Part shown: in pieces, positions 9,350-55,014 of the stretch
Layout of the letters: each line of letters begins with the position of its first letter
How positions within the stretch are numbered: position 1 is the stretch's first letter
Source of the DNA: a virus
Length of the DNA stretch: 64,000 nucleotides
Virus record (IMG/VR): IMGVR_UViG_3300029827_000121
Span: 9,744 to 73,743 of that record
Reading direction: 5' to 3' (one strand)
Position numbers and translations under genes: made by a program
The notes under the pieces: model-generated
What the model was told of the DNA's origin: nothing
Database searches by the model: none
Seen by the model: the letters and a program-made list of their open reading frames with translations, nothing else

Positions 9350-10098
9350 TGATCAAATTTAGCCATTTTAATGCTTATCGATGTCAATAGTTGTGTTATT
9401 CTACCAATTACTAGCTAGTTGAATCGTTCTCTATTTGGTTGATAGGGGGAAGGGTAACTTCCTCGAAATCAGCCATTTGCGCGTTTTGAAACGTAGTATA
9501 CGCTTCCTCTCGTGCTTTAGCTGGTGCAATGGTTATATTTTGCTCAATGTCCACTTTGTCGCCGAAATCTTGCCGATTATACCTTGACATAAACCATTGA
9601 CGGTGACCCCAAACACGGTCGAAACGGCGTATGCGGTTACTTGTACGTTTGTAATTATCGTCATTTTCGACCTGATTATTGAGTATTTGAACTTCACCTT
9701 CAAATTCATCCGCGACTGCGTGCGTACGATGTCGTACGGCAGTTCGCCACGTGTTCAACAGTTGAACAGACACCGATCTCCACAGATACACCGTCGTTTT
9801 GGCTAGTCCGTGGCGTTTAACGATATTGTCGATGGTGTCGGTAGTAGTGGCTATTTCGAGGATAATGCTTTGCATTTTTCGGGCGTCATAGTGCTGTAAA
9901 CCGAAGGGCGTTTTCACTGAAGCAGGGACCAGCAATTCTTTTTCCTCAGATGATAGGTGGGATACGTTCGGTTTTTCCTCCCCTTTTATCACCTGCAAAG
10001 CATTTTTATCACTTGTCATGATGCTCCTTTTTTATCTATTTAATAAATTAAATTATGAGCATGCATAATTTAACTCGTTAAATGGCTAAATTTGATCA
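9350..10098. repeat. 19-bp perfect inverted repeat pair flanking terS (9350-9368 / 10080-10098)
   Basis: TGATCAAATTTAGCCATTT and its reverse complement AAATGGCTAAATTTGATCA. Confidence 0.9.
9411..10019 (-). CDS. terS: Terminase small subunit
   Basis: HTH (GLAKTTVYLW) followed by helical region and RQWFMSRYNRQDFGDKVDIEQ motif typical of TerS; upstream of terL. Confidence 0.85.
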   Translation of the reverse strand: MTSDKNALQVIKGEEKPNVSHLSSEEKELLVPASVKTPFGLQHYDARKMQSIILEIATTTDTIDNIVKRHGLAKTTVYLWRSVSVQLLNTWRTAVRHRTHAVADEFEGEVQILNNQVENDDNYKRTSNRIRRFDRVWGHRQWFMSRYNRQDFGDKVDIEQNITIAPAKAREEAYTTFQNAQMADFEEVTLPPINQIENDSTS

Positions 10099-10250
10099 AT
10101 TTGACCATAATTAACTAAAAGTTAAATTATACACGTGTATAATTTAACACGTTAAATTATGAGCATGCATAATTTAACACGTGTTAAATAGCGAAATTCG
10201 TTCAAAAACGCTATTTAACGAATATTAAATTATGAGCGTGTATAATTTAA
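10048..10250. repeat. Four 26-bp palindromic repeats TTAAATTAT-N8-ATAATTTAA
   Basis: Copies at 10048, 10122 (perfect 28-bp palindrome 10121-10148), 10152 and 10225. Confidence 0.9.
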
Positions 10251-10537
10251 ACGATTAATAGGGTATAGGGTTTTTGCACGCGCCCTACGGCGCGTGTTTT
10301 GTTCTCACTTTAAAATGCAATAAAATGCGAAAACAATGAAACCACTATGGTGAAACTAGCTAGCTAGGGTGAAATTGGTCGATATTATTGCCGTGGGGCG
10401 ATTGTGGATAGGCTGTACAGCCTATAGTATTATATCCCCTTCCGTAGGTTTCCCCTATTGGTTAATCCTGATTACTAGAGATTGTCACTAATAGGGTAAT
10501 GGTGTATGGTAAAATTAACCAATAACCGGGAGGTATA

Positions 10538-14905: not shown

Positions 14906-15319
14906 ATGAAAAGATTTTTATTGCCGTGCATTATACTGTTTTTTGTTCCGACAATTAATGGGCAAAATATATATGTTAATGGTCAAGCAAAAGATAATAT
15001 TGGAAATAGATTAATTTATAAAGTCAAAGAGAACATCAGACAATCAAAAGGAATGATTTTATATCCTTCGGAAACCGGTTCAGGTATTCAAATCAACATA
15101 ATTACTTTAGATGCATTAGAAGATAATTTATCCACAGTATATTCTATTGTATGGACATGGACCACTTCAAACAATTTTAAATCATTTATTACTCATCATG
15201 TTGGTATGTGCGGAAAATATAAAATAAATGATGTTGCCGAACAAATTGTTGCCGATACGGATGAAATTATTATGGAATTAAAAAAGATAATACTTGATAT
15301 TTATAACGAAAATCAATAA
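14906..15319 (+). CDS. Secreted protein (signal peptide)
   Basis: MKRFLLPCIILFFVPTING N-terminus; AAGGAG SD. Confidence 0.65.
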   Translation: MKRFLLPCIILFFVPTINGQNIYVNGQAKDNIGNRLIYKVKENIRQSKGMILYPSETGSGIQINIITLDALEDNLSTVYSIVWTWTTSNNFKSFITHHVGMCGKYKINDVAEQIVADTDEIIMELKKIILDIYNENQ

Positions 15320-15390: not shown

Positions 15391-15648
15391 ATTGCCATGG
15401 CGTAGTTGGGCCTTGTTACGCATTGCAAAGCAAAGGTAATGCCAAGTATAGCAATGTATTGTGTTGTAAAGGTATAGTGTAGCTGGGCCATGTTGCGCTG
15501 TGCAAAGGCAAAGCGTAGTTAGGCAATGTAGTGTATGGCAAAGGTAATGCGAAGTTGGGCCATGTAGCGTAATGCAAAGGCATAGCTCTGCGTGGTATAG
15601 TTAAGCCATGCAAAGGCATTGCATAGTTGTGTGAGGTAATGCAAAGGC
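15391..15648 (+). repeat. Array A1: (NNNGY)n + AAAGGY units, about 7 units; putative guide ncRNA
   Basis: Parse: aaaggt aatgc caagt atagc aatgt attgt gttgt aaaggt atagt gtagc tgggc catgt tgcgc tgtgc aaaggc... Confidence 0.9.
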
Positions 15649-15663
15649 ATGCCTTGAGCAAAG

Positions 15664-15740
15664 TAAATTTTCCCTGTCCCGATTCACTGCCTTCATTGTA
15701 TCAGGCGGATGAAGGTAAGGAAAAAGGCAGGGAAAATTTA
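15664..15740. other. Stem-loop insert interrupting array A
   Basis: 13-bp perfect IR TAAATTTTCCCTG/CAGGGAAAATTTA with inner CCTTCAT/ATGAAGG stem. Confidence 0.8.
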
Positions 15741-15754
15741 TAATTATTTTCGCT

Positions 15755-16577
15755 AATGCAAAGTAATGCAGCGCTTGTCACCGCAAAGGCACGGTTTAGT
15801 TTGGCCCCGTGTTTCTAAGCGAAGCAAAGGCGAAGCATTGTGAAGATAGGTGATGATAAGCAAAAGATAAGTAATGTTTTGTAAAGTTTAGTAATGCACA
15901 GGCATAGTTCTGTATTGTATCGTATAGCACAGCAAAGGCATGGTGATGTACAGTGAAGTTCAGCAATGTACAGTAAAGACTAAGTCAGGTGTAGTACAGC
16001 AAAGCAATTGTAACGCACAGCAAAGGCATAGTTCAGTATAGTAAAGTTAAGCGAACCATCGGCAAAGTATAGCGGAGTATAGCTTGGCAAAGACTATGTT
16101 TGGTGCAGAGGGGTGCAGCTAAGTACAGCAATGGCGATGCATAGAAAGGTGGTGGGAAACACTGCACAGGCTAGGCAAAGTGGAGCATAGCTTGGCAAAA
16201 GCAAAGCGGGGCGTCGTTTTGTGTTGTATGGCAAAGCAAAAGCAATGTGAAGCAGGGTCTTGTTTAGCACAGGTAATGCAGTGTATAGTATTGTGTGGCA
16301 ATAGCACAGCGGAGCTGTGTTACGCACCGTTTGGCATAGGCATAGTTTAGTGAAGTAATGCATAGCATAGGCAGAGTCTGGAACAGTACCGTTTGGCACA
16401 GGCATAGTTAAGCCCCGTCATATACAGTTGCGCATTGTAAAGGCTGGGCGTAGTGATGCATAGTGAAGCACAGGCAAAGCTTGGCAATGTAATGTATAGC
16501 TCAGGCAAGGCGTGGCAAAGCATAGTACAGTCGCGCACAGGCAATGCGAGGCGCAGTATGGTGTTGTATTGAAAAGC
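15755..16577 (+). repeat. Array A2: (NNNGY)n + AHAGGY units, about 23 units; putative guide ncRNA
   Basis: Same 5-nt periodic grammar, more degenerate hexamers (aaagac, aaaagc, aatggc). Confidence 0.9.
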
Positions 16578-16582
16578 AAAAA

Positions 16583-16611
16583 GGTTTCGTCTCGTTTTTT
16601 GAGGCGAAACC
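16583..16611. terminator. Hairpin closing array A
   Basis: GGTTTCGTCTC/GAGGCGAAACC stem immediately after the last unit. Confidence 0.5.
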
Positions 16612-25175: not shown

Positions 25176-25600
25176 GGTTCAAAACCTATTCGGAAAAAGA
25201 TCTACCGAGAAAAATCATCGATAAAGGCGTTTACGACGTCGAAGTGATCGAAGCGATCGATCAGGTAAGTAAAAACGACAAGGAGATGATCCGGCTTACT
25301 ATTGCCGTCTGGTCGGGGGATCGCGTCGTCAACAGAATCTATGACTATCTGCTTGATGAAATGCCCGCTAAACTCCGCCATGCGTGCGATGCTTTCGGGC
25401 TGCTGGCGAAATACGAGACGGGAAGCCTCAGAGCCTTCGATTTCGAAGGTCGTGTCGGTAAAGCGAAAATCGGCATCGAAGTGGATAAAAACGGCGTCTA
25501 TCCCGACAAGAACAAGATCGATGATTACGTGTGCCGTGAAGCGAAACATCTGGCGGACCAGAACAACGCTCCTCCAGCGGATTCCGATCTGCCATTTTAA
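25172..25600 (+). CDS. DUF669-like ssDNA-binding protein
   Basis: GVYDVEVIEA..SKNDKEMI OB-fold pattern, acidic tail DSDLPF; follows the Sak4-like gene. Confidence 0.8.
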   Translation: MRFKTYSEKDLPRKIIDKGVYDVEVIEAIDQVSKNDKEMIRLTIAVWSGDRVVNRIYDYLLDEMPAKLRHACDAFGLLAKYETGSLRAFDFEGRVGKAKIGIEVDKNGVYPDKNKIDDYVCREAKHLADQNNAPPADSDLPF

Positions 25601-26045
25601 CGGTGTTTGGTAAGGTAATGCAAAGGCACCGTGGGGTGATGTATTGTCAAGCACAGGTACAGCACGGTTTTGTTTAGCATAGGCAACGCATTGTTATGAC
25701 ATGTTTTGTTAAGCACAGGCATAGTGAAGCAATGTAAAGTTTTGCACAGGCATGGTGATGTAAGGTTTGGTAAGGTGATGCACAGGCAATGCGCGGTGGA
25801 GTTTCGTTATGCACAGGCACGGTTTGGCAAAGCACGGCTTCGTTTTGCATAGGCGGTGTGGCGTTTAGTAAGGTGAAGCTTGGTCATGCACAGGCAGTGC
25901 GCGGTGAAGTTTCGTTATGCACAGGCAAGGCAGGGTAATGTTTGGCCCAGCACAGGCTAAGCTTGGTGTTGTTTGGTAAGGCACAGGAAGAGCAAAGTGA
26001 GGTTTAGTATAGCACAGGCGAAGTAAAGCATAGTCAAGCAAAGGC
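25601..26045 (+). repeat. Array B: 13 complete (NNNGY)4-7 units separated by A(C/T/A)AGGY; putative guide ncRNA
   Basis: 67 of 68 pentamers end in GY; all 13 units end in GC before the hexamer (GCAHAGG core). Confidence 0.95.
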
Positions 26046-26056
26046 AAGGAGCGCGT

Positions 26057-26260
26057 ATGACGAAAGATTCGCTGATGACTCCCGATGAATTGAGTGAGCG
26101 ATTAAACGTCAGTAAGAAGTTCATCGAAAAATACATGGCGTTACGGCGTCTGCCCGGTATGGTAAAAATCGGGGGAATTTATCGGTTCAGGCGTGCCGAT
26201 ATTGAAAAACGACTGACCGGCGGAGAGTTTTTATTGCCGGAGAGAGGAAGAAAAAAATGA
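26057..26260 (+). CDS. xis: Excisionase / HTH_17 recombination directionality factor
   Basis: LMTPDELSERLNVS...LPGMVKIGGIYRFRRADIE; near int. Confidence 0.85.
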   Translation: MTKDSLMTPDELSERLNVSKKFIEKYMALRRLPGMVKIGGIYRFRRADIEKRLTGGEFLLPERGRKK

Positions 26261-26532
26261 GCTTCTACATTTGCGGCAAAGCCGTAAAAGAGTGTGAAGG
26301 GTGTCCCTCCGCCGTCCCGCACAAATGGAGTCCTCGATGTATGCTCGGCGGCTGCCGGGAATACGCCGACCGGTGGAAAAAAGACATTCCGACCTGTGAA
26401 GAGTGTCCTTTCAAAAACACCTGCGTGAAATACGAACAGGGCAATCGATACGATATGTCGAAAACGCCTGAATTCTGTCCGATATACGCCAGCAAAATCA
26501 TCTATAATGCGGTATGCGTAAAAACATTATAG
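26257..26532 (+). CDS. Cys-rich hypothetical protein
   Basis: ATGA overlap with xis; multiple CxxC. Confidence 0.55.
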   Translation: MSFYICGKAVKECEGCPSAVPHKWSPRCMLGGCREYADRWKKDIPTCEECPFKNTCVKYEQGNRYDMSKTPEFCPIYASKIIYNAVCVKTL

Positions 26533-26623
26533 CAGTATGCGTAAAAGCGTAGAAAATATACCCTCTCCTCCCCTACCTGATACTATATTATACTCAGATA
26601 CCCTCCCTGAAAAGGGAGGAGAT

Positions 26624-27676
26624 ATGCGAGTCTGGTATAAGGATGATGCAAACGGGGTCCGGTGGTATTACGTTGACCGGGCATACCGAAACGGCGCGGG
26701 AAAGGCGCGTCACTTCCGCCGCAAGACGGATAATTTCGATCAGCATTTAAAAAATCAGATCGAAGCCCGTTCATTGACGGGAGATTGTTCTTTGACATCG
26801 TTGCGATTTTCCAAATGCGTGGAACTTTATTTGAACGAGCGCGGACGCGGGGGATTTAATCAGGCGTGTTACGACCGGTCGATTAAGGAGCTGGGTCGCC
26901 TGTTTCCCGACAAACAGATTTTCGCCGCCGGTTACAGCCGGTATGTCGGGAATCTTGAAGGGAGCGACCTTGCGGTCAATACGGTCAATAATTATAAAAT
27001 TATTGTCCGGTCGATCTGCAATTTCGCTTATGAGACCGGTCGGTGCGGTCGGGCCACGGTCAGAGATTGGAGGATCAGGAAAGGCAACGAGCGCAATCGG
27101 ATTCTCTCCGACGGCGAAAAAAACGCCCTGATCAATTATTTGACCTTACATAAATCCCATATACTCGAAGCGGTAAAATTCTCCCTTATTAATCCCATCC
27201 GCAAGGGGGATCTTTTCAGTTTGCAACGAAAAGATCTTCAGATGGATGTCTCGCGATGGGTCGTTCGTTTTCAGGCGAAGAAAACGAGAAATAAAATTCG
27301 GGTGACGATCCTGCCGAATATCGACATGGATTTTGTCCGGTACGCCCATTCGTTGCCGGGGGATTGTCCGTGGCTTTTTCCCATGTTGGAACGGAAAAAC
27401 GGAAAGGTTGTCTGGAAAAAAATCAGCGATCCCCGATGGCATTTCGATACGGTTTTAAAACAGGTGGGGATTTATGATTTCAACTGGCACGATTTGAAGC
27501 ATTGCGCGGAGACGTATTTATTGCGGCAGGGATTCACCTATGAGATGTTGCAGAAAATGGGTATTCAAACGAGTCCGAAGACGCAGCATATTTACGATAA
27601 CCGTCGTCAGATTGATATCATAAATGACGTATTATGTAGCCCTCAGGTAGCCTTTCCGGTACGGAAGACGGCATAG
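26624..27676 (+). CDS. int: Tyrosine integrase
   Basis: IRKGDL (R), K, WHDLKH (HxxR variant), Y in TQHIYD; adjacent attP; GGAGG SD before ATG 26624. Confidence 0.9.
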   Translation: MRVWYKDDANGVRWYYVDRAYRNGAGKARHFRRKTDNFDQHLKNQIEARSLTGDCSLTSLRFSKCVELYLNERGRGGFNQACYDRSIKELGRLFPDKQIFAAGYSRYVGNLEGSDLAVNTVNNYKIIVRSICNFAYETGRCGRATVRDWRIRKGNERNRILSDGEKNALINYLTLHKSHILEAVKFSLINPIRKGDLFSLQRKDLQMDVSRWVVRFQAKKTRNKIRVTILPNIDMDFVRYAHSLPGDCPWLFPMLERKNGKVVWKKISDPRWHFDTVLKQVGIYDFNWHDLKHCAETYLLRQGFTYEMLQKMGIQTSPKTQHIYDNRRQIDIINDVLCSPQVAFPVRKTA

Positions 27677-27879
27677 AACCATTGGTTTTATTGGGTGAAA
27701 CCTACTCCGTCGTAGAGTTGCTAAACCTGCGTAGGGGCAACTCTACCGGAGGTTCAAATCCTCTCCCCTCCGTTTTTTTAACGAATTTGGGCACTTTTTT
27801 TAAAAACCTGCTTTCCATCATGAGTATTTTTATCCTCAAATATACTATCATCAGGGCCAATTGTAGTCTTTTTGTAGCC
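27635..27879 (+). mobile_element. attP: core = 3' half of tRNA-Ser(GCT) (27718-27772) with arm-type repeats
   Basis: TT-GCT-AA loop, long variable arm, GGAGG-TTCAAAT-CCTCT T-arm, CCCCTCCG; no 5' half; paired (T/G)GTAG(C/T)C repeats 11 bp apart at 27635/27646 and 27862/27873. Confidence 0.9.
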
Positions 27880-27932: not shown

Positions 27933-29313
27933 AGAGGCGATGCATGGTATGGTTCAGTATTGTTATGCACAGGCAGAGCATGGTTAAGCCAAGCACAGGC
28001 AAAGCGAGGTAGAGCGAAGTCAGGTGATGCACAGGCACAGCAGAGTAAAGTTAGGTCATGCACAGGCAGAGTGATGTCTAGTAAAGCATAGGCGTAGCGA
28101 TGTGCTGTTATGTACAGGCACAACAGAGTAGAGTTTGGTATTGTTTAGCACAGGCATGGTCTAGTTTTGTTTGGCACGGTAAAGCAAAGGCAAAGTGCTG
28201 TAAGGTGAAGCACAGGCATGGTCTGGTTTAGCTTGATATTGCGCGGCACAGGCAATGTAAAGTGAAGTAAGGTGATGCACAGGCGATGCATGGTATAGCA
28301 ATGTATGGCACCGGCATGGTGCAGTGATGTTCAGTAAAGCATGGGCACGGTGCTGTGAAGTGTTGTATAGCAATGGCAAGGTGAAGTAGTGCATTGTGTG
28401 GCAAAGCCATTGCTTGGTGAAGTGCTGTAATGTCGAGCATAGGCAATGCATAGTGAAGCATTGCTCTGCAAAGGCAAAGCGTGGTTTAGTGATGCAAAGG
28501 CATAGTTTTGTGACGTGCTGTTTCGTAAAGCATAGACTATGCGTTGTGACGCTGTGTATTGCAAATGAAAGGCGAAGTGGTGCATGTCGCTGTATGGCAA
28601 AGGCGAAGTAAGGTGAAGCACTGTGATGCATTGTGGAGCACAGGCATAGTGAAGCATTGTGCAGCATAGGTAAGGCAAAGCGGTGTGTTGTTTCGTCATG
28701 CACAGGCATGGTATCGCGGCGTTTAGTGCGGCAAAGGAACGGCAAAGCTTGGCATGGCGATGGTAAAGCGTTGAGTAGTTTGGCACAGCACCGGCAAAGT
28801 AAGGCGAAGTAGTGTTTAGCATAGCATAGGCAAAGCATAGTGAAGATAAGGAACGCGTCGTGAAGTCAAGCACCGGCAATACATGGTAAAGCACCGTTTG
28901 GCCTTGTTAAGGCGAAGTATTGTGTGGTATGGTGTTGTGGAGCATTGCACAGGTATAGCATGGTGCTGTTATACTTTGTGTAGCGCGGGAAAGGCATGGT
29001 AAAGTAAGGTTGTGCCTCGTGTACCACAGGAATGGCAAAGTGAAGTTATGTAATGTGGGACAAAGGCTGAGTAACGTTAAGTAAAGTGATGCATAGGCAT
29101 GGCAACTCGCGGTAACGTATTGCCCGACGAAGCAAAGGTAAAGCATAGCAATGTGACGCGCAGCGGGGCGAGGGTAATGCATAGTAATGTAATGTGCAGC
29201 GGGGCAGGGGTAATGTGAAGTATAGTTTAGTCGCGCAAAAGCTTTGTATGGATTTGCGTAGTTAAGTGTTGCAAAAGCAGGTCGATGTAACGTATCGTAT
29301 GGAACAGCACTGT
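27933..29313 (+). repeat. Array C1: about 41 (NNNGY)n + AHAGGY units; putative guide ncRNA
   Basis: Continuous pentamer/hexamer parse; ends in a T-run. Confidence 0.95.
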
Positions 29314-29370
29314 TTTTTTTAACCATTTTGGAAAAAACCAATTGGATCAAATAGAAAGGAGATGTTCGCG

Positions 29371-29478
29371 ATTGTAAAGTGCTGTATTGCAATGTGGGGT
29401 TTTGCAACGGCTGAGTTGAGCAAGGAATAGTTTGGCGATGCAAAGGTATAGTGTAGTATTGCTAATCAATGCAAAGGT
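29371..29478 (+). repeat. Array C2: about 3 units directly upstream of the RAMP gene
   Basis: attgt aaagt gctgt attgc aatgt ggggt tttgc aacggc ... aatgc aaaggt. Confidence 0.8.
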
Positions 29479-29512: not shown

Positions 29513-30145
29513 ATGAAGACGCTCAAAGTAAAAATCACTTTCCAAGAAGAAGTGTTGGGAACAGCAAGTCCGTCAAAAGAAATCCACGCGGAATATATAG
29601 CCAGCAAAGCTCCCGACAAACTAACGCGGGAAGAAGAAGTGGAAGCTATCGGGATAGAAGAAGTCGTTGAAAAAGCAATGACTATCTTCCCACGCGATAA
29701 GGATAGTAATCCCATCTTTTGGGATTACCAGTGGAAGGGATTTTTCAAAGATACCTGCGCCGCTCTCATGCGCTGTGAAGGATTCGAAACGTATAAGGCA
29801 TCAAAATCCGAATCGGGTAAAGGAAAGAAAGGAGAATTAAGAGCATATAAAAAGGTGATCGATGGATGTATTTTCGTTCACCCGAGAATGATTGCCATCA
29901 AAGTAAAAGGCAAAATGGGAAACTGTCAACGTCCTCTTCGCGGAAATACCGCGCAGGGAGAGAGGATTGCTTTGGCGAACAGTGAAACCGTCCCCGCAGG
30001 AAGCACCTGCGAATTGGAGATTCAATGTTTGAGTGATTCCCATGAAAAGTTTGTGCGTGAATGGCTTGATTACGGCCAATTGCGCGGCATCGGACAATGG
30101 CGTAACTCCGGCAAAGGCCGCTTTACCGTCAATTACTTGAAATAA
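29513..30145 (+). CDS. Stand-alone Cas7/Csm3-like RAMP-fold protein (210 aa)
   Basis: beta1 LKVKITFQEEVLG; PIFWDYQWKGFFKD (equivalent to IPGSSxKGxxR); ETVPAGSTCELEI; C-terminal Gly-rich loop GIGQWRNSGKGRF; GAAAGG SD. Confidence 0.85.
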   Translation: MKTLKVKITFQEEVLGTASPSKEIHAEYIASKAPDKLTREEEVEAIGIEEVVEKAMTIFPRDKDSNPIFWDYQWKGFFKDTCAALMRCEGFETYKASKSESGKGKKGELRAYKKVIDGCIFVHPRMIAIKVKGKMGNCQRPLRGNTAQGERIALANSETVPAGSTCELEIQCLSDSHEKFVREWLDYGQLRGIGQWRNSGKGRFTVNYLK

Positions 30146-31218
30146 GCCATGCTTTGGCAATCCAAAGTATAGGAATGCCCGGTGCGGTCAAGCATCGTTA
30201 ATGCTATGTATTGCAGGGTGGTGTATGGCACAGGCATGGTATCGTTAGGCATAGTAAAGTTAAGCATAGGCAAGGTAAAGCTATGCATTGCCTAGTAATG
30301 GTTTGGTAAAGCAGGGCCGGATACGGTGGAGCAAAGCACAGGCTTGGCGAGGCGTTGTATCGTGTGGCACAGGCATAGAATAGTTAGGAGTGGCCGAGCA
30401 AAAGCCAAGTGATGTATTGTCCGGCAAAGGTAAAGCATAGTGCTATTTCGTTGCGTAGAGCAGAAGCGAGGCGAAGTATAGTAATTCGTAGTATAGCAAA
30501 GGAAGTGTACCGTTAAGTTGCGCGAAGCAAAGGCTGAGTGAAGCGTAGTTTTGCGCCGCAAAGGCAAAGCGAAGTTCCGTTCAGTACGGCAAAGGCATGG
30601 TTATGTTACATACTGTGAAGCCCTGCAAAGGCATAGTTTTGCGTGGTTTAGCGACGCAAAAGAAGTGTGAAGCCTTGTTTCGTATCGCCATGCGAAGGTA
30701 TTGTACTGCGCAGTGCAGTCATGTATTGCAATGGTTGGGCGAAGCCCTGTCCAGTATGGCAAAGCAAAAGCAGTGTATGGTGAAGCTGAGCTAGCAAAGG
30801 ATCAGCATAGTTAAGTATCGCGATGCATTGAAAAGGCTATTCAATGTATAGTGTTGCAAAGGTAACGTGGAGTCAGGTGTTGTTTCGCGATGCAAAGGAA
30901 GAGCATAGTTGTGTTCCGTTCTGCAAAGGCAAAGCGAAGCGAAGTAGCGGCGTGTGAAGCATAGGCGAAACATGGTGGTGTTGAGTATAGTAATGCAAAG
31001 GCAAAGCGAAGCAAAGTAAGGTGTTGTGAAGCATAGGCAGGACATAGTGTGGTGCAGCATGGTAATGCAAAGGCGGAGTGAAGTAATGTAACGTACAGTT
31101 TCGCAGAGGCGTAGTAAAGTACCGTTGTGTTTGACAAAGCAAAGGTTCAGCAAAGCGTAGTATTTTATTGTTCAGCAAAAGCAAAGCTAAGTATCGTTCG
31201 GTCGTGCGAAGCAAAGGC
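30146..31218 (+). repeat. Array D: about 31 (NNNGY)n + AHAGGY units; putative guide ncRNA
   Basis: Starts at the RAMP stop codon and ends 3 bp from the convergent RusA-like stop; AAAGGY dominant. Confidence 0.95.
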
Positions 31219-31221
31219 GCA

Positions 31222-48014: not shown

Positions 48015-50543
48015 TTATTTCCTCGTTCTCCAGAATACATGCCCGAGCGTCCTCCCATAAGCGCTCGCGCCGATATTCCAGCACTCTTTGAAATCCTTCG
48101 CGATTATATCCTGTTCGAGTGAATTAAACGTCATGTCTTCACTATATGTTCTATTGATAACCTGACGTACGCTCATATCATGACAGAGAAGTTCGAATGT
48201 TCCCTTGTCTATTTCCTGAATGCTTCCCCAATCAATGGCACCGAGATATTCGTCAACCACATCGGCATGAAGAATACCGTAATATTCTCCGAAATCAGGA
48301 AGAGTTTCAATATCGGGATTATTGGTCGGAATACTCCACAAACTGTCGATACACCAGACAAGTATATAGTTGGGAGCTTTGCGAATAAGTTGTATCGAAC
48401 CTTCGATCTTGTCGATAATCTGTCTTGACATCAAATAATAACCGGCGTTATATCGCATGTTGTTGGCAAGATCGCAATAATGAATCAACGAATCGCCGCG
48501 CTGTGACGTCACCATAAAACCGGGAACCATCCGAAGAATATTGCAATTAGGCATTGCCTCTTTATAACGCATATTCAATAAGCCGATATGCTTTTCATCC
48601 ATGCGATTCCGCAGTGTTTCATCGGTGGTAATATCCGTAATTACCCGGTACATCGGATCAAGCGTTATTCCCTGAAGTTCTTTTGACAAATTTTCATGTA
48701 CTCGCACCTGATTGCTGGAAAGCACCTCCACAATAATCGATTCGTATCCGGTGGACCAGAATATTGTTTTTCGTTCATCGCATTCGGTTTTTGAAAAATA
48801 ATCATCCGTATATACATTATGTAAAGTAACTATGTATCCATCCTGCGAGGCACGCATAACCCGTCCCGCGCCGATCGCGCAAGCCTGTAACGGTTTCGTC
48901 CCGCCGTAATAATCGGTTCCCACCCTTACTTTTTTTGGAGATAAATATTCTATGATGGTTTCGGTATCGCCATCCTCCCATTTAAGCGGCGTTCCCTCAT
49001 CAGCCTTTTCAAATGTACCGACTATTGCGGTAACAATACCGTGTGTTTTACTTGCGTAAAAGGCGGCAGCCACGCGAAAATCGCCGCACCATGTAAATTT
49101 AAGCGGCGTTAATTCTTCCCCGTTTTCGGTTGTTCGCGGTTCGGCTCCGTTTTCACTAATATCGGTAGTACGCCATTTTGTATAATGCGTCCAGTGCCAT
49201 TCAAAATAATCCTGATCGAGCGGAATAAAAAACACTCCTACCTGATTAGGTTCGGTATATCCCCATGAATCATTTATTTTCGCGCCATCCGCTTCAGTTC
49301 CTTTTATTATTTCCGAAATATCCGTTCCGGTAATACCGGCTCCCAGATAACCGATCGATGCGTTTTTTTCCCGTCCTGTATCAAAAGTAAAATAACCGCC
49401 ATCATTATATTTGACGATAATCCATGGAAACAACGTGTTGATGCATTTTTGCAACGAACCGGCAACCTCATGCATACTCTGCACATTGGTTCCGGTCGTA
49501 CTCATATCAACAATGAATTCAGCCTCGTATTCATTGTGGGTAAATTTAAAAGAGGCACCGGGAGCTTCTATCGTTCGATAATAAGCGGGATCTTTATTGA
49601 CATCGGACATTTCAGCGCATATAAGACGACATCCGATTTTAACGCTGCTGTCATTGTTTCCTATCGGTTTTTCTCTCCAATGCGTCGAATAATCCCTGTT
49701 AGGAATTATACCGGTATTCAATTGCGTCGTTCCGCTTTGCTGCAACAGTTTCGCATTCGTTCTATCCCTTATTCCGGCTCCGGCGATTCTCGCCATGGAA
49801 TAAAGATAGTCATAACGATAATTATGCTCTTTTCTTCTTTGTCTTCCATAAAGCAGTATATGCGGAACCGGCCCGTTCGCACGCCAAAGAATACCAACGC
49901 TTTGATCGAAACTTAATTTGAATATGCCATTCGAATTCCCGAATACTCCATCATTGTCGGAATCGTCCCAATCGGATATGACGTTCGATGGCATTCTTCT
50001 CGAAACGCAAAGACATTCACTATATCCCCTGTATTTATAACTGCTGGTATATATTCTTTTACCGAACTGCCATATTTTTTTTCTTTGTATTTTATGCCAA
50101 CTATTAATATTCAACCGGCCATGGATATAACATCCATCCGATTCCCTGTCGATTCCCGACAACGCCATTCTTACCTGATTTTCGGAAATATATTCGGCTA
50201 TTTCATCATGATAATATTCGCCATCGTCGGTAGGCCATGCGATATAACAACTCACACTGTCATAATTAAAAACGTCTTGATCACAGGTAACGACGTTATT
50301 AACTTTGCTCATATAAAGATTTTTTAATTCGCTTCCGCAGCCATCCCTCCAAGGCGGAGGTTGCAAATCAGACCATAGCCACGATGCCAATCTCGGCTGT
50401 ATTTCGGTGTCGAAAGAATGAGCATTGATCAATCCTGCGACCGCATTGACTGGTATGTCCTCATGCGGCGCATTCTTTACCAAACCGTCACTGAAATTGG
50501 TTTGATTCCAGTTTTCCAGATTGTCGTCTGTTTGTCTGCTCAT
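48015..50543 (-). CDS. Tail tubular/nozzle-type protein
   Basis: 842 aa beta-rich, N-terminal NFSDGL motif, follows the adaptor gene; positional inference. Confidence 0.6.
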   Translation of the reverse strand: MSRQTDDNLENWNQTNFSDGLVKNAPHEDIPVNAVAGLINAHSFDTEIQPRLASWLWSDLQPPPWRDGCGSELKNLYMSKVNNVVTCDQDVFNYDSVSCYIAWPTDDGEYYHDEIAEYISENQVRMALSGIDRESDGCYIHGRLNINSWHKIQRKKIWQFGKRIYTSSYKYRGYSECLCVSRRMPSNVISDWDDSDNDGVFGNSNGIFKLSFDQSVGILWRANGPVPHILLYGRQRRKEHNYRYDYLYSMARIAGAGIRDRTNAKLLQQSGTTQLNTGIIPNRDYSTHWREKPIGNNDSSVKIGCRLICAEMSDVNKDPAYYRTIEAPGASFKFTHNEYEAEFIVDMSTTGTNVQSMHEVAGSLQKCINTLFPWIIVKYNDGGYFTFDTGREKNASIGYLGAGITGTDISEIIKGTEADGAKINDSWGYTEPNQVGVFFIPLDQDYFEWHWTHYTKWRTTDISENGAEPRTTENGEELTPLKFTWCGDFRVAAAFYASKTHGIVTAIVGTFEKADEGTPLKWEDGDTETIIEYLSPKKVRVGTDYYGGTKPLQACAIGAGRVMRASQDGYIVTLHNVYTDDYFSKTECDERKTIFWSTGYESIIVEVLSSNQVRVHENLSKELQGITLDPMYRVITDITTDETLRNRMDEKHIGLLNMRYKEAMPNCNILRMVPGFMVTSQRGDSLIHYCDLANNMRYNAGYYLMSRQIIDKIEGSIQLIRKAPNYILVWCIDSLWSIPTNNPDIETLPDFGEYYGILHADVVDEYLGAIDWGSIQEIDKGTFELLCHDMSVRQVINRTYSEDMTFNSLEQDIIAKDFKECWNIGASAYGRTLGHVFWRTRK

Positions 50544-50552
50544 ATCAAACCG

Positions 50553-51236
50553 TCAAAAAGGTCTTTTCGTGCAAAACAAAGAAATACCCTGTTCCCCATT
50601 GTCAAGTTCCGACCAGTATTTCGGCTTTAAAACTTCTTCGATATATTTCGTTACCGCCAATTGTTTTTTATGATCGTTGACGGCATCGATAAGCGACATT
50701 GTAGCCTGCATCAAAATCTGTTCCGCTTCCGGACTCGGACATTCATGCTGTATTCTCTGTGAAGTAATTTCCGTGGGTAATTTATAAGCTATGCGACGAA
50801 ACAAAGAAGTGGTATTTCCGGGATTTACTCCCCGAAACATGAGAGTAGCCGGAGTAATGTTTCCACTTCCGGCTACTCTTGCGGGTCTGGTTTTTACATT
50901 GAGAATCCGCCGGTATTCCATTCCCTCAAAATGAAGTGCTTCAACAAACCATTCATTTGTCCATGCCGACGGCAGATCGGCATCCCAATCAATTACGATA
51001 TGTTTAACCTGCCAAACGGTCTCCGGACAATCATACTGAAAAGTATTATCAGCAGTGGCAATAAAAGGAAAATCACCGGTAGCGGAATCGTAAAGAAGAT
51101 TCTGTTCCCGTTCAGCCGTGTTCAGTATCCGGTGTGCCTGATTATAAAGAGGAAGTATTCCCTTCTCTGTCCCCTCCGGTTGCCACCCGTGGCACTCCAG
51201 AGCTATCCACGCCAGATGTTGACTCGTTGATGCCAT
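50553..51236 (-). CDS. Head-tail adaptor protein
   Basis: About 230 aa, position after capsid, LYNQAHR..T....QY.CP pattern. Confidence 0.55.
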   Translation of the reverse strand: MASTSQHLAWIALECHGWQPEGTEKGILPLYNQAHRILNTAEREQNLLYDSATGDFPFIATADNTFQYDCPETVWQVKHIVIDWDADLPSAWTNEWFVEALHFEGMEYRRILNVKTRPARVAGSGNITPATLMFRGVNPGNTTSLFRRIAYKLPTEITSQRIQHECPSPEAEQILMQATMSLIDAVNDHKKQLAVTKYIEEVLKPKYWSELDNGEQGISLFCTKRPF

Positions 51237-51777
51237 TCGTTACACTTCCTTTCGGCCTTCCTCTTTTTCTGTTTCCGGCTTCATTTTCCTGTTGATTTAT
51301 CGATTCGAGTTCACGCACTTTTTCGGCGATGTCTCTTTCCAATTGCTCTTTTCTACTGAGTTCGGCTTTGAATGGTTTCTTGGCTTCCTCTCTGATTTCC
51401 TCTCTTAACTTATCATCCAATACCTCAAGATCGTCGGGATGCGATGCGATGTATCTTCGATTCCAACCGTCAGGATCATCCCATATGTCAGCTTCAATAT
51501 CCCCGCTTGCTGTCTGGCGAAAGTATAAAACGCGAGCGCCTTTCCTCGATTTCCATTCCGTCCGTCCGGTATTTATATCCGATGATTCATATGCTTCGAC
51601 ATCTCTCAGTCCATGCGGCCTGATATTGTAACAGATGCCTTCATGATCGATTTCAGGAATAATCGGTCCTTTATACCGAACACGTATAAACCGTTCTCCC
51701 TTTCGCCGTAGTTGTTCGACTCTTTTTAATCGATCCCGTTCCTCCTGCGACTTAAGAATTTCAGCCAGTTCATTCAT
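51142..51777 (-). CDS. Hypothetical protein with KRGRPK motif
   Basis: Follows the capsid gene; true stop may overlap the next gene. Confidence 0.55.
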   Translation of the reverse strand: MNELAEILKSQEERDRLKRVEQLRRKGERFIRVRYKGPIIPEIDHEGICYNIRPHGLRDVEAYESSDINTGRTEWKSRKGARVLYFRQTASGDIEADIWDDPDGWNRRYIASHPDDLEVLDDKLREEIREEAKKPFKAELSRKEQLERDIAEKVRELESINQQENEAGNRKRGRPKGSVTNGINESTSGVDSSGVPRVATGGDREGNTSSL

Positions 51778-51865
51778 AATTCATCCCTTTTTTAATGGAT
51801 ATAAGGGTAGTCCCGCGAAACGGGATACTACCCTCGAAAATTTACAAACTGTTTTTACTTCAACT

Positions 51866-53152
51866 TCATGCGTTTTCAACACGCCCAAGTACGACAAGTA
51901 CCGAACCGAAATACTCTCTCGCGGCACCCGTCGGATCAACAGGAGTATTGTCAAACTGCATATGCTGATATCCCCGTACACCGGCATACCCAACACCGTT
52001 ACGCACGTTATAATCCCAATCCTGAGATATCATGTGCATTTTTTCCGGTTCAAGCAGGTAAAGAGCGCCAGCCGCATGAAGAATCGATGCATCCCTTACC
52101 AGCGGGTTTTCAAGCTGCCGCTGGTCGTTGGCAATCGGCCACATATAATTGGCCTGCAACCCATACGGAGGTGCCGTACCACTCGGCAGAAGGGTGGCAA
52201 GCCTGTCATCACGAACGAGATAAATCGTCGCTCCGGCGGCACTTTCCCATTTGCCAAGCATTCCGTACCAGTTTTGTACCTTACTATCCTTGATATCATC
52301 GACACGGGTATACCGTGAACCAAGCGTATCAACGAATCGTGGATTCGAAAAACGCGCCGCCTGAAGCTGGGAAACGGTAAGAAGAAACGCCTGATTATTT
52401 TCGATCGAAAGCGGCCACAATCTGCGCATGAACGCGAACCTGACAAGTTCATCCATTACCCGTCCGCTCAGCATTTGAGCAGCAGTTTGCGGAAAGGTTC
52501 CCGTCCCTCCGGAAGCGGCATCAATCGCCGCAACTATACGGTTGGTATACGTTGCCCAGTTCGGATGAAACTGCGGTTGCTGATAGATGGTTCCGGCATT
52601 GGCAACATAACAGTGCCGGTTCCATTGCGCCGGACAGGTATTCGCCGTAGAACCGAATTGCAGGTTCCATCCGTTCGTCTCGATAAGCCCCATATGAATT
52701 TCAAGGTCTTCCTCCGCCGCCGCATGAGGAGCCAGATCCTTCGCATGTTGCTCATAGAGATTGAAAAACTCGGCATCGAGTTTGTGCTCTCCATATCCGG
52801 GTTTATCCTGAAAAACAACGCGGTAATTATTACGGAACAATGTACCGCTTTTCACGACGGGAGCAACTTCAGTTCCCATCGCGACGCCATTGCCGCGAAT
52901 GATATTCGCGTTCGCTTCCATTTTCAATCCGACGCGAACATTGTTCGCTCCGCCGATTTCCTCCGGTGACAAACGTTCGATAACGGCACTCGGCATCGAC
53001 AATTCCTGCCGTTTATAGATGATGCGTTCACCGGTGATATTCGCATAAATCGATTTCGGAATAGCTCTTCGACGGAGAGTATTGCTGAATTTACGTACAA
53101 CAAGACTTCCGCCCGAAAGAGTATTCAAATCGGTGTAATTCCTGACACCCAT
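51866..53152 (-). CDS. Major capsid protein
   Basis: 428 aa after portal and scaffold; strong SD; HK97-type layout; downstream hairpin. Confidence 0.8.
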   Translation of the reverse strand: MGVRNYTDLNTLSGGSLVVRKFSNTLRRRAIPKSIYANITGERIIYKRQELSMPSAVIERLSPEEIGGANNVRVGLKMEANANIIRGNGVAMGTEVAPVVKSGTLFRNNYRVVFQDKPGYGEHKLDAEFFNLYEQHAKDLAPHAAAEEDLEIHMGLIETNGWNLQFGSTANTCPAQWNRHCYVANAGTIYQQPQFHPNWATYTNRIVAAIDAASGGTGTFPQTAAQMLSGRVMDELVRFAFMRRLWPLSIENNQAFLLTVSQLQAARFSNPRFVDTLGSRYTRVDDIKDSKVQNWYGMLGKWESAAGATIYLVRDDRLATLLPSGTAPPYGLQANYMWPIANDQRQLENPLVRDASILHAAGALYLLEPEKMHMISQDWDYNVRNGVGYAGVRGYQHMQFDNTPVDPTGAAREYFGSVLVVLGRVENA

Positions 53153-53186
53153 TTTTAAGCTCCTTTTAGTTTATTGCCTGATAATA

Positions 53187-54767
53187 TCAGGCAGAATTTC
53201 TCCAATACGGTTCCGGCTGCGGAATCGGCATTCCTAAAACTTCATGGGCTGCTTGCAACGCTTTGAACATATCCCATCCGCGCTTATCACCGATCCGTAA
53301 CAACCGTTCCATTTTTTCTTCGTCAACGGTCATCCGGCCCTTTCTTTCACCAATGATTTCCAACGCCTGATTTTCAGTCAAACCCTGTCCTTCAGGCGGT
53401 AAACCGGTCGGTTCGAGCGTCGGTGGTGATGTATCGCGTTTTTTAAGAGATGCGTCAAGATTTTGCTGTCCCTTTTTTTCAGCCTCAATAATCGCCAATT
53501 CCTTTTCCGCAGTCGTTATCCCTTCACTTTCCTTCATATGTTGAAACGTGGATGCGAAGTCCGGAAACGTTACTTTCTGTCCTCTCCAATCGGTAACCGG
53601 TATACGGGAACCGGTCATAGGATCAATGCGTTCTCCCCGTTGCCTCCAGTAAACATTCATGAGTATTCCGTAATTCCGGATATCATTTGGATTAATGCCG
53701 AAATTGCCGGGGAAAATACTGTTCCTTTCACAAATTTTAATAAGTTCAGGATTTTTCGCATTAAAATCACTGACGAACCTGTTTATCTCATCAAAATTTT
53801 TCGGCTTTCTATCATATACTACTTCAGCCATTCTGACGATCGCCGATTCAAGGTCATCCCTGTTGTCGGCATATAAAGGCTTCGTCGTCTTTAATTCGGG
53901 AAACTTTGATTGTAACTCCTCCAGATTTCTTTCCGCTGTTTTTTGCTCAAACTCCAGCTTTCTTTTTTCCTCAGCCCGTTGGGTCATTTCCGATACGTTT
54001 TTAATACTTTTTTCAAGATTGGCATATCGCGATTCGGCGGTTTTACGATAACTCGTAAATTCATCCTTTACCGAATCAAGTTCAGCCAGAGTATCTTTGA
54101 AAACTTCAACCGTACCAGACATCACGCTCTGAAGAGCATCAACATCTTCTCCGCCGTAATCCTTCAGTTTTTCTATCCGGGCGTTGATTTCATCCAATTT
54201 CGTATTAAATTCCGCTCGTTTCCCGGATGATATGAAAGGCTTTTGCTCAACGGATTTCTTCGCGTCTTCAGTCGCCTTTTTAAGTTCTTCAAGTTGCTTT
54301 TGCAAATCAGGAACTTTTCCGGCTGTTGACTGCAATTCCGTGATCTTCTCTTCATATTGACGTATCTTATCCTCGGCACTATTCGCATAACGTCTCGCGT
54401 GAGCCGCCTGCTTGATGATTTCCTGAGGACTTCGATAAGAACGCAAATTCTCCGGCAATTCGGATTTTTTCATTTTTCCAAGCGCGGAAAAATCTACGTA
54501 TTCGTCTTCCTCCTCCACGGGCTGCTTCGTCTTATCTTCTTGTTCCGGTTTCGCGGGAGGGTGTCCTTCATCGGTTTTGGATTCCGTTTTCGGAGCCGCT
54601 TCTTCAGAAATGGAAGCTTCGACTATTTTTCTTACTTTTTCGTCCTGCTCCTTTTGCCATTCCTCGATGTCAACGCCGGGGGGCGGTTCATCCGGTATGT
54701 CAATCAAAGCTTTCTGTCTTTCTTCTTCACTCGTAAAAACAAGTGTTTCCATGGCTACATCATCCAT
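53187..54767 (-). CDS. Scaffolding protein
   Basis: Acidic N-terminus, long coiled coil, between portal and capsid. Confidence 0.75.
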   Translation of the reverse strand: MDDVAMETLVFTSEEERQKALIDIPDEPPPGVDIEEWQKEQDEKVRKIVEASISEEAAPKTESKTDEGHPPAKPEQEDKTKQPVEEEDEYVDFSALGKMKKSELPENLRSYRSPQEIIKQAAHARRYANSAEDKIRQYEEKITELQSTAGKVPDLQKQLEELKKATEDAKKSVEQKPFISSGKRAEFNTKLDEINARIEKLKDYGGEDVDALQSVMSGTVEVFKDTLAELDSVKDEFTSYRKTAESRYANLEKSIKNVSEMTQRAEEKRKLEFEQKTAERNLEELQSKFPELKTTKPLYADNRDDLESAIVRMAEVVYDRKPKNFDEINRFVSDFNAKNPELIKICERNSIFPGNFGINPNDIRNYGILMNVYWRQRGERIDPMTGSRIPVTDWRGQKVTFPDFASTFQHMKESEGITTAEKELAIIEAEKKGQQNLDASLKKRDTSPPTLEPTGLPPEGQGLTENQALEIIGERKGRMTVDEEKMERLLRIGDKRGWDMFKALQAAHEVLGMPIPQPEPYWRNSA

Positions 54768-55014
54768 TCAATCGTCCTTTCGAATTGCAGTTGGGTCCGT
54801 CAAAAACAGTTGGCTGCTTATCGGGCTGCTTTTTCTTGACAATCATTTATTAAAAATCCTTACTCCCGAACGAATTAGATACCTATGCCGAACAGCATAA
54901 GATCGGGTTCGGGATCAGGTTCACTGTCATAGGAATTATGTTCGCATCCCTGCAAAGTCTTATTCCTGTTGTCCAGATTTTTTTGAATATCCGTCGGTTC
55001 AGGTTTCGTCTTTT

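What the first reader, a model, noticed from the sequence alone, without database searches (positions are those of the whole stretch)
25622..26045. Variable dinucleotides look like codon positions 1-2: a possible wobble-skipping target code
Seen: the first two bases of the 68 array-B pentamers are TT16, AA13, GA8, AT6, AC5, TA5, GG4, CA4, AG3, GC2, GT1, CC1, and TC, CT, CG, TG 0. The GA-versus-TC asymmetry and AA/GA/AT/TT dominance resemble codon starts in an AT-rich coding strand. Read as NNN, stops (TAA, TAG, TGA) occur in the arrays, so they are not literal codons. Inference: targets of the form NNxNNx in frame would resist synonymous escape. An alternative is simple C-avoidance that keeps a G-rich RNA unstructured.
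Basis: inference. Interest (0 to 1): 0.7.

Follow-up and report, generated by a model that had tools for sequence, protein, structure and literature searches.

The report
VIPR guide-RNA array in a phage

Summary
Bases 25605-26047 parse into 71 clean G-Y-N-N-N pentamers, with a GCAHAG hexamer every 4-7 units.

This is array B of four same-strand arrays, 4.0 kb in all. They surround a 210-aa gene (29513-30145) whose model is a Cas7-type RAMP. Its family profile aligns end to end with the Vipr protein of phage SUSP1. The locus is therefore a VIPR system with relaxed "YNNNG" repeats and "staggered" 5n+1 arrays, both named in the 2026 preprints. The scan has met VIPR many times before on other DNA.

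The NNxNNx wobble-skipping idea is the published VIPR code. It is supported here only indirectly:
- The variable dinucleotides fit codon positions 1-2 best in 17 of 17 related loci, against 10 of 17 for control pairs.
- About half the guides differ between two ~95%-identical phages.

Direct target searches gave no excess over shuffled guides. These were local searches plus six IMG/VR pattern scans. Guides of only 4-8 repeats are too short for that test to decide.

C-avoidance also lowers predicted RNA folding. The third position varies as much as the other two, and its role is open.

Verdict: real, a new member of a known kind.

The parts
25605..26047 (+). Array B, the finding: 13 units of 5n+1 nt, each a GCAHAG hexamer followed by 4-7 G-Y-N-N-N pentamers. 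It lies between the SSB-like gene and xis. These are candidate vrRNA guides acting in trans.
   Evidence: Unit-wise turnover against the 95%-identical relative is shown.
15394..15655 (+). Array A1: 7 units, with a 72-nt (two-unit) duplication pattern.
15663..15741 (+). Strong hairpin that splits array A into A1 and A2.
   Evidence: -36.7 kcal/mol, z = -5.1, 0 of 200 shuffles fold as well.
15745..16570 (+). Array A2: about 25 units.
16583..16611 (+). Hairpin closing array A. It has no T-run after it, so its role as a terminator is not shown.
   Evidence: -18.8 kcal/mol, z = -4.3.
27937..29290 (+). Array C: about 41 units, directly upstream of vipr.
29368..29464 (+). Short array C2 (3 units) between a T-rich gap and the vipr ribosome-binding site.
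29513..30145 (+). vipr gene: 210 aa, a minimal Cas7-like RAMP with an RRM core, a long beta-hairpin thumb (residues 136-160) and a G-loop reading G-I-G-Q-W-R-N-S-G-K-G.
30177..31220 (+). Array D: about 29 units, directly downstream of vipr.
26057..27676 (+). Context only: excisionase-like HTH gene (26057-26260), a small Cys-rich ORF (26257-26532) and a tyrosine integrase (26537-27676). Together they separate array B from array C.

Best explanation
The stretch is a vrRNA (guide-RNA) array of a VIPR system carried by a temperate phage.

Shown here:
- The phage encodes a minimal Cas7-like RAMP, Vipr (29513-30145).
- That gene is embedded in, and accompanied at a distance by, 4.0 kb of same-strand arrays.
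- Only G and the following pyrimidine are fixed in each 5-nt repeat.
- The arrays are cut into 5n+1-nt units by a GCAHAG-G punctuation.
- The units turn over as cassettes between close relatives.

Inferred from the published SUSP1 and P. fulva systems:
- The arrays are transcribed and one Vipr protomer binds each repeat.
- The protomer buries the G-Y anchor and presents the variable bases.
- The filament binds double-stranded DNA of rival mobile elements and blocks their transcription.
- It reads two bases and skips one, so that recognition follows codon positions 1-2 and ignores the wobble base.

The codon-like, C-poor make-up of the variable dinucleotides then has two causes. One is matching to the sense strand of coding targets. 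The other is selection to keep a G-rich RNA free of G-C pairing and of out-of-register G-Y.

My odds: about 0.9 that this is a VIPR array, and about 0.5 that the NNx rule applies unchanged in this relaxed D-G-Y clade.
For: Protein:
- The MSA-based AlphaFold model has pLDDT 88.8.
- All top Foldseek PDB hits are Cas7-family RAMPs: type VII Cas7, Csm3, Cmr4, Csf2 and Cas7-11. The best E-value is 1.4e-7, and 178 hits have E<=0.001.
- The family profile hits type VII Cas7 at E 8.5e-7 through the G-loop.
- hhalign of the family against SUSP1 Vipr (ALH47069.1, located through its GGYNN arrays) gives probability 83.6% and E 8e-6 over 177 columns.
- The SUSP1 residues that hold G2 and Y3 (W178, R179) align with the nearly invariant W196 and R197.
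- The two residues that read G1 (H17, D177) are T17 and Q195 here. This matches the loss of the first G in the repeat (D-G-Y instead of G-G-Y).

Association of gene and array:
- 17 of 18 related loci examined (GC 43-66%) carry period-5 arrays with the same 5n+1 punctuation right after the gene.
- The family is large, with 1649 clusters at 50% identity.

Not a CRISPR locus:
- No Cas1 or Cas2 in the 96%-complete genome.
- No Rfam match.

Guide-like evolution, compared with a ~95%-identical phage:
- Differences per aligned position are G 3%, Y 17%, N1 28.5%, N2 30% and D 27.5%.
- Most large indels are whole units of 26, 31 or 36 nt.
- 48 of 97 guides have no counterpart.

Codon-likeness is shown.

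Literature:
- The preprints name YNNNG repeats and staggered arrays.
- They describe the skip rule and the wobble alignment.
- They give the structural basis.
Against: - No transcript, RNP or target is shown for this phage.
- No conserved accessory (vap) gene was found next to vipr. The neighbours in relatives are cro-like, RecT, SSB and DUF6291 genes.
- There is no 3' tail or pseudoknot like that of SUSP1 vrRNAs.
- Guides of 4-8 repeats give only 8-16 read bases under the NN rule.
- Such patterns match the phage's own masked genome about 55 times, the same as shuffled guides. That would be poor specificity.
- Decoded guides show no excess of matches over shuffled guides under any rule tried.
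- IMG/VR hits look like chance.
- The codon-phase test is partly unspecific, since control pairs also favour codon positions 1-2 in 10 of 17 loci.
Confidence: 0.8

Rival explanations
1. It is the same VIPR array, but in this relaxed D-G-Y clade all three variable bases of each repeat are read. The base that replaces G1 would stack on N2 and pair with the target's third base. Each protomer would then read a contiguous triplet and extrude only G-Y. A 6-repeat guide would reach 18 bp of specificity.
For: - The third position (D) varies as much as N1 and N2 between close relatives: 27.5% against 28.5% and 30%.
- The G1-reading residues of SUSP1 Vipr (H17, D177) are replaced by T17 and Q195, while the G2 and Y3 contacts are kept.
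- Guides have only 4-8 repeats.
- Under NNN rules the phage has no exact self-match, against about 55 under NN.
- N2-D correlates best with codon positions 2-3 in sense (r=0.80).
- With stop triplets set aside, N1-N2-D fits in-frame sense codons best. LogL per triplet is -3.791 against -3.852 for the next phase, and residual r=0.52.
Against: - Stop triplets make up 4% of NNN, only mildly below the 6.3% expected.
- With stops included, the in-frame codon model is not the best.
- No contiguous match was found for five guides in IMG/VR. None was found locally either.
- The published structures flip the equivalent base away from the target.
- D's composition may simply follow the general A-rich, C-poor make-up of the arrays.
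Confidence: 0.15
2. It is the same VIPR array, but the dinucleotide bias says nothing about targets. It would come from RNA-level constraints: avoiding C so that the many anchor Gs do not pair, avoiding out-of-register G-Y, and a preference for A after the pyrimidine.
For: - C is 7-13% at all three variable positions.
- Redrawing the variable positions with codon-like C content changes the predicted fold of array B from -125 to -159 +/- 10 kcal/mol.
- N1 is about 45% A in relatives whatever their GC content.
- The first repeat after each hexamer is G-C-A in about 70% of units, which is a structural constraint.
- A fitted independent-position model beats every codon model.
- SUSP1 NN positions are also C-poor, at 10-14% with n=21.
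Against: - G followed by Y is not strongly avoided inside the variable part: 64 G-Y against 100 G-R at N1N2.
- N1N2 prefers codon positions 1-2 in 17 of 17 loci, against 10 of 17 for controls.
- Rank correlation with codon positions 1-2 in sense is 0.84, against at most 0.39 for the other phases.
- The two explanations are not exclusive.
Confidence: 0.3
3. The arrays are not guides. They would be a decoy or sponge RNA, or a DNA-level lattice, that soaks up a Vipr-like or other G-Y-binding protein. Satellite solo vrRNAs that divert a rival's VIPR are an example of this kind.
For: - Arrays A and B lie 13 kb and 3.5 kb from vipr.
- Solo and decoy vrRNAs are described in the literature.
- No targets were found here.
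Against: - The phage carries its own intact, conserved vipr flanked by arrays of the same grammar.
- Cassette turnover of half the units between close relatives is what a guide repertoire would show. A uniform sponge would not be expected to behave this way.
Confidence: 0.05

Closest known systems
VIPR systems with relaxed repeats (YNNNG/NNNNG) and 'staggered' vrRNA arrays (bioRxiv 10.64898/2026.04.26.720920, methods and fig. S18 legend)
   Same: - A stand-alone minimal RAMP in a phage.
- Flanking pentanucleotide arrays with a fixed G and pyrimidine.
- Neighbouring guides set off by one base, which is the 5n+1 grammar.
- No CRISPR array and no adaptation genes.
   Different: I could not see the preprint's figures or tables, so I cannot name the type number (I-VII).

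This phage has an unusually large repertoire of about 118 units. They total 4.0 kb, or 5.5% of the genome, in four arrays, two of them far from vipr.

The preprint says only the ribozyme-interspersed and single-vrRNA architectures were confirmed by sRNA-seq. It reports no code test for the relaxed-repeat variants in the text I could read.
Type II VIPR of Escherichia phage SUSP1 (Vipr ALH47069.1, vap1, four vrRNAs)
   Same: - Full-length profile alignment of the proteins.
- The W-R pair of the G-loop that holds G2 and Y3.
- One 5-nt repeat per protomer.
- Arrays on both sides of the gene.
- Carried by a phage.
   Different: - SUSP1 repeats are G-G-Y-N-N, with 9-16 repeats and a ~40-nt pseudoknotted tail per vrRNA.
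- Here the repeats are D-G-Y-N-N, with 4-8 repeats, no tail and a GCAHAG-G punctuation.
- The G1-reading residues differ (H17/D177 against T17/Q195).
- No vap gene was recognised here.
- A plain profile search of the SUSP1 genome finds nothing. The link appears only in the profile-profile comparison.
Class 1 CRISPR backbone subunits (Cas7, Csm3, Cmr4, Csf2, type VII Cas7)
   Same: - The fold: RRM core, thumb hairpin and G-loop.
- A periodic kink of the bound RNA by the thumb.
   Different: - The period is 5, not 6.
- There is no repeat-spacer array.
- There is no Cas5, Cas6, Cas10, Cas1 or Cas2.
- The guide is written as interleaved fixed and variable bases.

Membership tests
VIPR (Vipr + vrRNA) | Minimal RAMP protein with an RRM core, a thumb and a glycine-rich loop, related to known Vipr. 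| tested here: met
   - Model pLDDT 88.8, with a thumb hairpin at residues 136-160.
- Foldseek top hits are all Cas7-family.
- hhalign to SUSP1 Vipr gives 83.6% probability and E 8e-6 over the full length.
- Profile hit to type VII Cas7 at E 8.5e-7.
VIPR (Vipr + vrRNA) | Tandem 5-nt repeats beside the gene, on the same strand, with a fixed G(G)Y anchor alternating with variable bases. | tested here: met
   - G is at 100% and Y (C/T) at 100% of the clean pentamers, with three variable positions.
- The anchor is D-G-Y rather than G-G-Y. This matches the 'YNNNG' variant named in the preprint.
- The same holds in 17 of 18 related loci.
VIPR (Vipr + vrRNA) | Variable positions are hypervariable between close relatives while the anchor is conserved. 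| tested here: met
   - Against a ~95%-identical phage, differences are G 3%, Y 17% and N1/N2/D 28-30%.
- Half of the guides are replaced.
- Within retained units, the variable positions change at 6-8.5%, roughly the background rate.
VIPR (Vipr + vrRNA) | Mobile-element context without CRISPR adaptation or effector genes. | tested here: met
   - Temperate-phage genes surround the locus: integrase, excisionase, a Sak4-like protein and a replisome organiser.
- No Cas1 or Cas2 in the 96%-complete genome.
- No Rfam CRISPR repeat family.
VIPR (Vipr + vrRNA) | An accessory vap gene next to vipr. | tested here: inconclusive
   No conserved partner turned up in an all-against-all comparison of neighbours in 18 loci. 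The shared neighbours are cro/cI-like, SSB, RecT and DUF6291 genes. The preprint says loci 'typically' have a vap, so it is not strictly required.
VIPR (Vipr + vrRNA) | Arrays are transcribed, and the RNA co-purifies with Vipr. | not testable with these tools
   No RNA sequencing run holding this stretch is listed.
VIPR (Vipr + vrRNA) | Targets follow the 1-nt skip rule (NNx), mostly in codon phase. | tested here: inconclusive
   - No excess over shuffled guides in about 0.3-0.4 Mb of related phage DNA, in the phage itself, or in its nearest relative.
- Three NNx scans of IMG/VR gave chance-like hits.
- The composition test is positive, at 17 of 17 loci.
CRISPR-Cas (class 1) | A repeat-spacer array of 25-40-nt repeats, with Cas5/Cas6/large subunit and usually Cas1-Cas2. 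| tested here: not met
   Tandem-repeat and Rfam scans show no such array. Cas1 and Cas2 are absent. Other cas genes were not searched for one by one.

The most novel reading that the evidence does not exclude
In this very large D-G-Y clade of Vipr (1649 clusters at 50% identity), the base that replaces the first anchor G would be freed from the protein. Q195 and T17 stand in place of the G1-reading Asp and His. That base would be read together with N1N2.

Each protomer would then recognise a whole contiguous triplet. Short 5n+1 cassettes of 4-8 repeats would become 12-24-bp guides. The cassettes would be shuffled, gained and lost at the GCAHAG-G punctuation, which would act as a recombination-based way of renewing the guide set.

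This would be a second VIPR code and a first hint of how VIPR repertoires are updated.
Probability: 0.15. Interest if true: 0.6.

Novelty: new member of a known kind. Interest (0 to 1): 0.3.

Why it matters
This is a clean natural example of the relaxed-repeat, staggered form of VIPR. The preprint says only the other two non-type-II array architectures were confirmed by sRNA-seq. The phage spends 5.5% of its genome on about 118 guides.

Three results here bear on open points for the class:
- The change in the repeat anchor goes with a change in exactly the two residues that read that base in the solved SUSP1 complex.
- Guides turn over as whole 5n+1 cassettes between phages that are otherwise ~95% identical.
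- The short guides raise a specificity problem that the NN-only rule does not solve.

None of this changes the fact that the kind of system, and the wobble-skipping idea itself, are already in print.

Tried and rejected
**Target searches**
- Guides of 5 or more repeats were decoded as NN or NNN with 0-3 skipped bases. They were searched against 278 kb of related loci. They were also searched against the phage's own masked genome, and both ways against its 95%-identical relative. Finally, 282 guides from 19 phages were searched against each other's loci.
- Real and shuffled counts agreed throughout. Two z-scores near 3 among 16 tests, and one isolated exact hit, were not convincing.
- Six IMG/VR scans were run.
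  - NNx for an 8-repeat guide gave 48 hits, many from giant-virus bins. The skipped bases did not match D.
  - NNx for the 7-repeat guide of array B plus its constant repeat gave 11 scattered hits.
  - NNNx gave 0 hits.
  - Two contiguous-triplet strings gave 0 hits.
- Hits of the first pattern were mostly in codon phase (31 of 43). I reject this as evidence, because a pattern made of frequent codon starts does that by chance.
- A read-through test across a hexamer with a variable gap could not be run. The tool needs four plain bases at the start of such a pattern.

**Other checks that led nowhere**
- No RNA holder is listed among public runs. I did not lay reads.
- A single-sequence fold was useless, at pLDDT 43.
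- A plain profile search of the SUSP1 genome found nothing. Only the profile-profile comparison linked the families.
- ATG as the first triplet of a guide (10 of 114 against 19 of 536, p=0.02) looked like targeting of start codons. It is explained by the G-C-A bias of the first repeat.
- Readings I considered before finding the VIPR preprints: a TRAP-like or potexvirus-like protein-binding RNA, rut sites, and switch-region-like R-loop DNA. I dropped them once the RAMP fold and the literature match were in hand.
- Coding function is rejected. There are no long + strand ORFs, and the - strand ORFs are open in all frames because of composition.
- Promoter and terminator scans gave fewer or no more sites than shuffles.

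Full report
**What is there**

The region lies between an SSB-like gene, which ends at 25600, and an excisionase-like gene, which starts at 26057. It has no long + strand ORF.

It parses almost perfectly into five-base units that begin with G and then C or T. A six-base unit (GCACAG, GCATAG or GCAAAG) occurs every 4-7 pentamers, so every block is 5n+1 bases long. The parse cost is 24, against 142 +/- 6 for shuffled sequence.

GA against TC is 8:0 here and 77:14 over all arrays.

**The wider locus**

The same grammar, always on the + strand, fills 15394-16570, 27937-29464 and 30177-31220. In all there are about 118 units in 4,026 bases, which is 5.5% of the 73.7-kb, 96%-complete phage genome.

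Between the last two arrays lies a 210-aa gene (29513-30145). It has no Pfam, PHROG or PADLOC match. It does have more than 7,900 relatives at 90% clustering and 1,649 clusters at 50%.

**The protein**

- With an alignment of 77 relatives, the AlphaFold model reaches pLDDT 88.8. It shows an RRM-like core, a long beta-hairpin (136-160) and a C-terminal glycine loop.
- All leading Foldseek matches in the PDB are Cas7-family backbone subunits: type VII Cas7, Csm3, Cmr4, Csf2 and Cas7-11. There are 178 matches at E<=0.001.
- The family profile also finds type VII Cas7 by sequence, at E 8.5e-7.

**The literature**

A full-text search for pentanucleotide repeats in phages led to three 2026 preprints on VIPR systems.
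- They describe a phage-borne minimal RAMP (Vipr) that polymerises on RNAs made of G-G-Y/N-N repeats.
- It binds double-stranded DNA by pairing only the NN bases and skipping every third target base. The skipped bases fall on wobble positions.
- The third preprint shows that this blocks escape by synonymous mutation.
[quoted passage not shown] That is the grammar seen here.

**Link to a proven Vipr**

I located the SUSP1 locus through its GGYNN runs. I then compared its 195-aa protein with the family alignment. hhalign gives 83.6% probability and E 8e-6 over 177 columns, from the first strand to the G-loop.

In the SUSP1 structure, G1 is read by H17 and D177. G2 is held by the thumb Arg and W178. 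Y3 is held by R179 and neighbouring residues. Here W196 and R197 are nearly invariant, while the G1 readers are replaced by T17 and Q195.

The repeat has lost exactly that first G, so the anchor is D-G-Y. This agreement between protein and RNA is inferred from an alignment, not from a structure.

**Is the pairing of gene and array general?**

In 17 of 18 related loci the gene is followed at once by 300-700 bases of period-5 repeats with a hexamer every 3-8 units. These loci come from human-gut, rumen and other metagenomes, with GC from 43% to 66%.

In those phages the gene sits in the early operon, often just after a cro-like gene and before RecT or SSB. I saw no conserved accessory gene.

**How the arrays evolve**

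A second phage (G001) is about 95% identical in the flanking genes.
- In aligned arrays, the anchor G differs at 3% of positions, Y at 17%, and the three variable positions at 28.5%, 30% and 27.5%.
- Most large gaps in the alignment are 26, 31 or 36 bases, which are whole units. One unit of array B sits at another place in the relative.
- Of 97 guides, 31 have a counterpart at 90% or better, 18 at 80-90%, and 48 have none above the null.
- Inside retained units, the variable bases change at 6-8.5%, near background, and the anchor at 2-3.5%.

The repertoire therefore renews mainly by exchange of cassettes at the punctuation. This also argues that each 5n+1 unit is a separate module.

I built the six possible dinucleotide spectra (three phases, two strands) from each phage's own long ORFs.
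- N1N2 fits positions 1-2 best in all 17 loci that had enough reference codons (12 sense, 5 antisense). The control pairs N2-D and D-N1 do so in 10 of 17 (Fisher p=0.007).
- In the window, the correlation with positions 1-2 in sense is r=0.86 and rho=0.84. The other phases reach rho of 0.39 at most.

So the resemblance is real and fairly specific, but three cautions apply:
- A model fitted to the arrays' own base composition does better still.
- C is depleted two-fold relative to codons at every variable position.
- Restoring codon-like C would make the RNA fold 33 kcal/mol more stably.

**The third variable base**

- N2-D correlates best with codon positions 2-3.
- With stop triplets set aside, N1-N2-D fits in-frame sense codons better than any other phase.
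- Stops are still 4% of triplets, against 6.3% expected.
- Guides are short, and the G1 pocket is altered.

Together these keep open a reading in which three bases per repeat are read. I give it about 15%.

**The direct test**

Decoding guides and searching gave nothing above shuffled controls in any local set. Six exact-pattern scans of IMG/VR gave nothing convincing either.

The first scan shows why the proposed phase test is weak: 31 of 43 hits lay in codon phase, yet many came from giant-virus bins and looked like chance. With 8-16 read bases per guide, chance matches swamp exact-pattern searches. A proper test needs all guides, mismatch tolerance, controls and the right rival genomes.

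**Verdict**

The system is a new member of a known kind, and earlier agents of this scan have filed the same family as VIPR on other DNA. Interest is modest. The open points are the role of the third base, the meaning of the extra base per unit, and how cassettes are renewed.

Noticed in passing
window 14906-15319 (+): This 137-aa ORF lies just upstream of array A and has a clear N-terminal signal peptide. It gives sub-threshold Cas2-like hits (Pfam Cas_Cas2CT1978 E 0.005; three PADLOC Cas2 models at E 0.001-0.008) over residues 21-66. They are probably chance matches. hhalign finds no relation to the Vipr family.
   Followed up: partly
window 15663-15741 and 16583-16611 (+): There are two strong hairpins (z = -5.1 and -4.3), one splitting array A and one closing it. 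Neither is followed by a T-run, so their role as terminators or processing signals is unknown.
   Followed up: partly
window 10047-10258: Two copies of a 104-bp repeat contain shorter 30-bp AT-rich units built around a palindromic TTAAATTATA-type core. This could be an operator or origin region.
   Followed up: no
window 27690-27780: A tRNA-like stretch lies downstream of the integrase. Another first-stage note calls it the 3' half of tRNA-Ser and the attP site. ARAGORN finds no complete tRNA anywhere in the window, which fits a partial copy.
   Followed up: partly
proteins P0137 (458 aa) and P0170 (432 aa), from the representative search: Two relatives are about twice the usual length and match the query in two stretches. 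They may be tandem-fused double Vipr proteins.
   Followed up: no
L017:9683-10654 (+): In this GC-rich relative, the open frame holding the Vipr homologue extends 318 bases upstream, giving 323 aa. This is either an N-terminal extension or only an upstream in-frame start codon.
   Followed up: no
G001 (L080-L083), reoriented coordinates 49347-55042: A 5.7-kb segment of the 95%-identical relative has no counterpart in this phage. There are several smaller such segments. I did not annotate them.
   Followed up: no
window 15425-15586, 29132-29215 and 30922-31074: There are local duplications of one or two whole units (36 or 72 bases, 74-83% identical) inside arrays A, C and D. They show that new guides also arise by tandem duplication followed by divergence.
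   Followed up: partly
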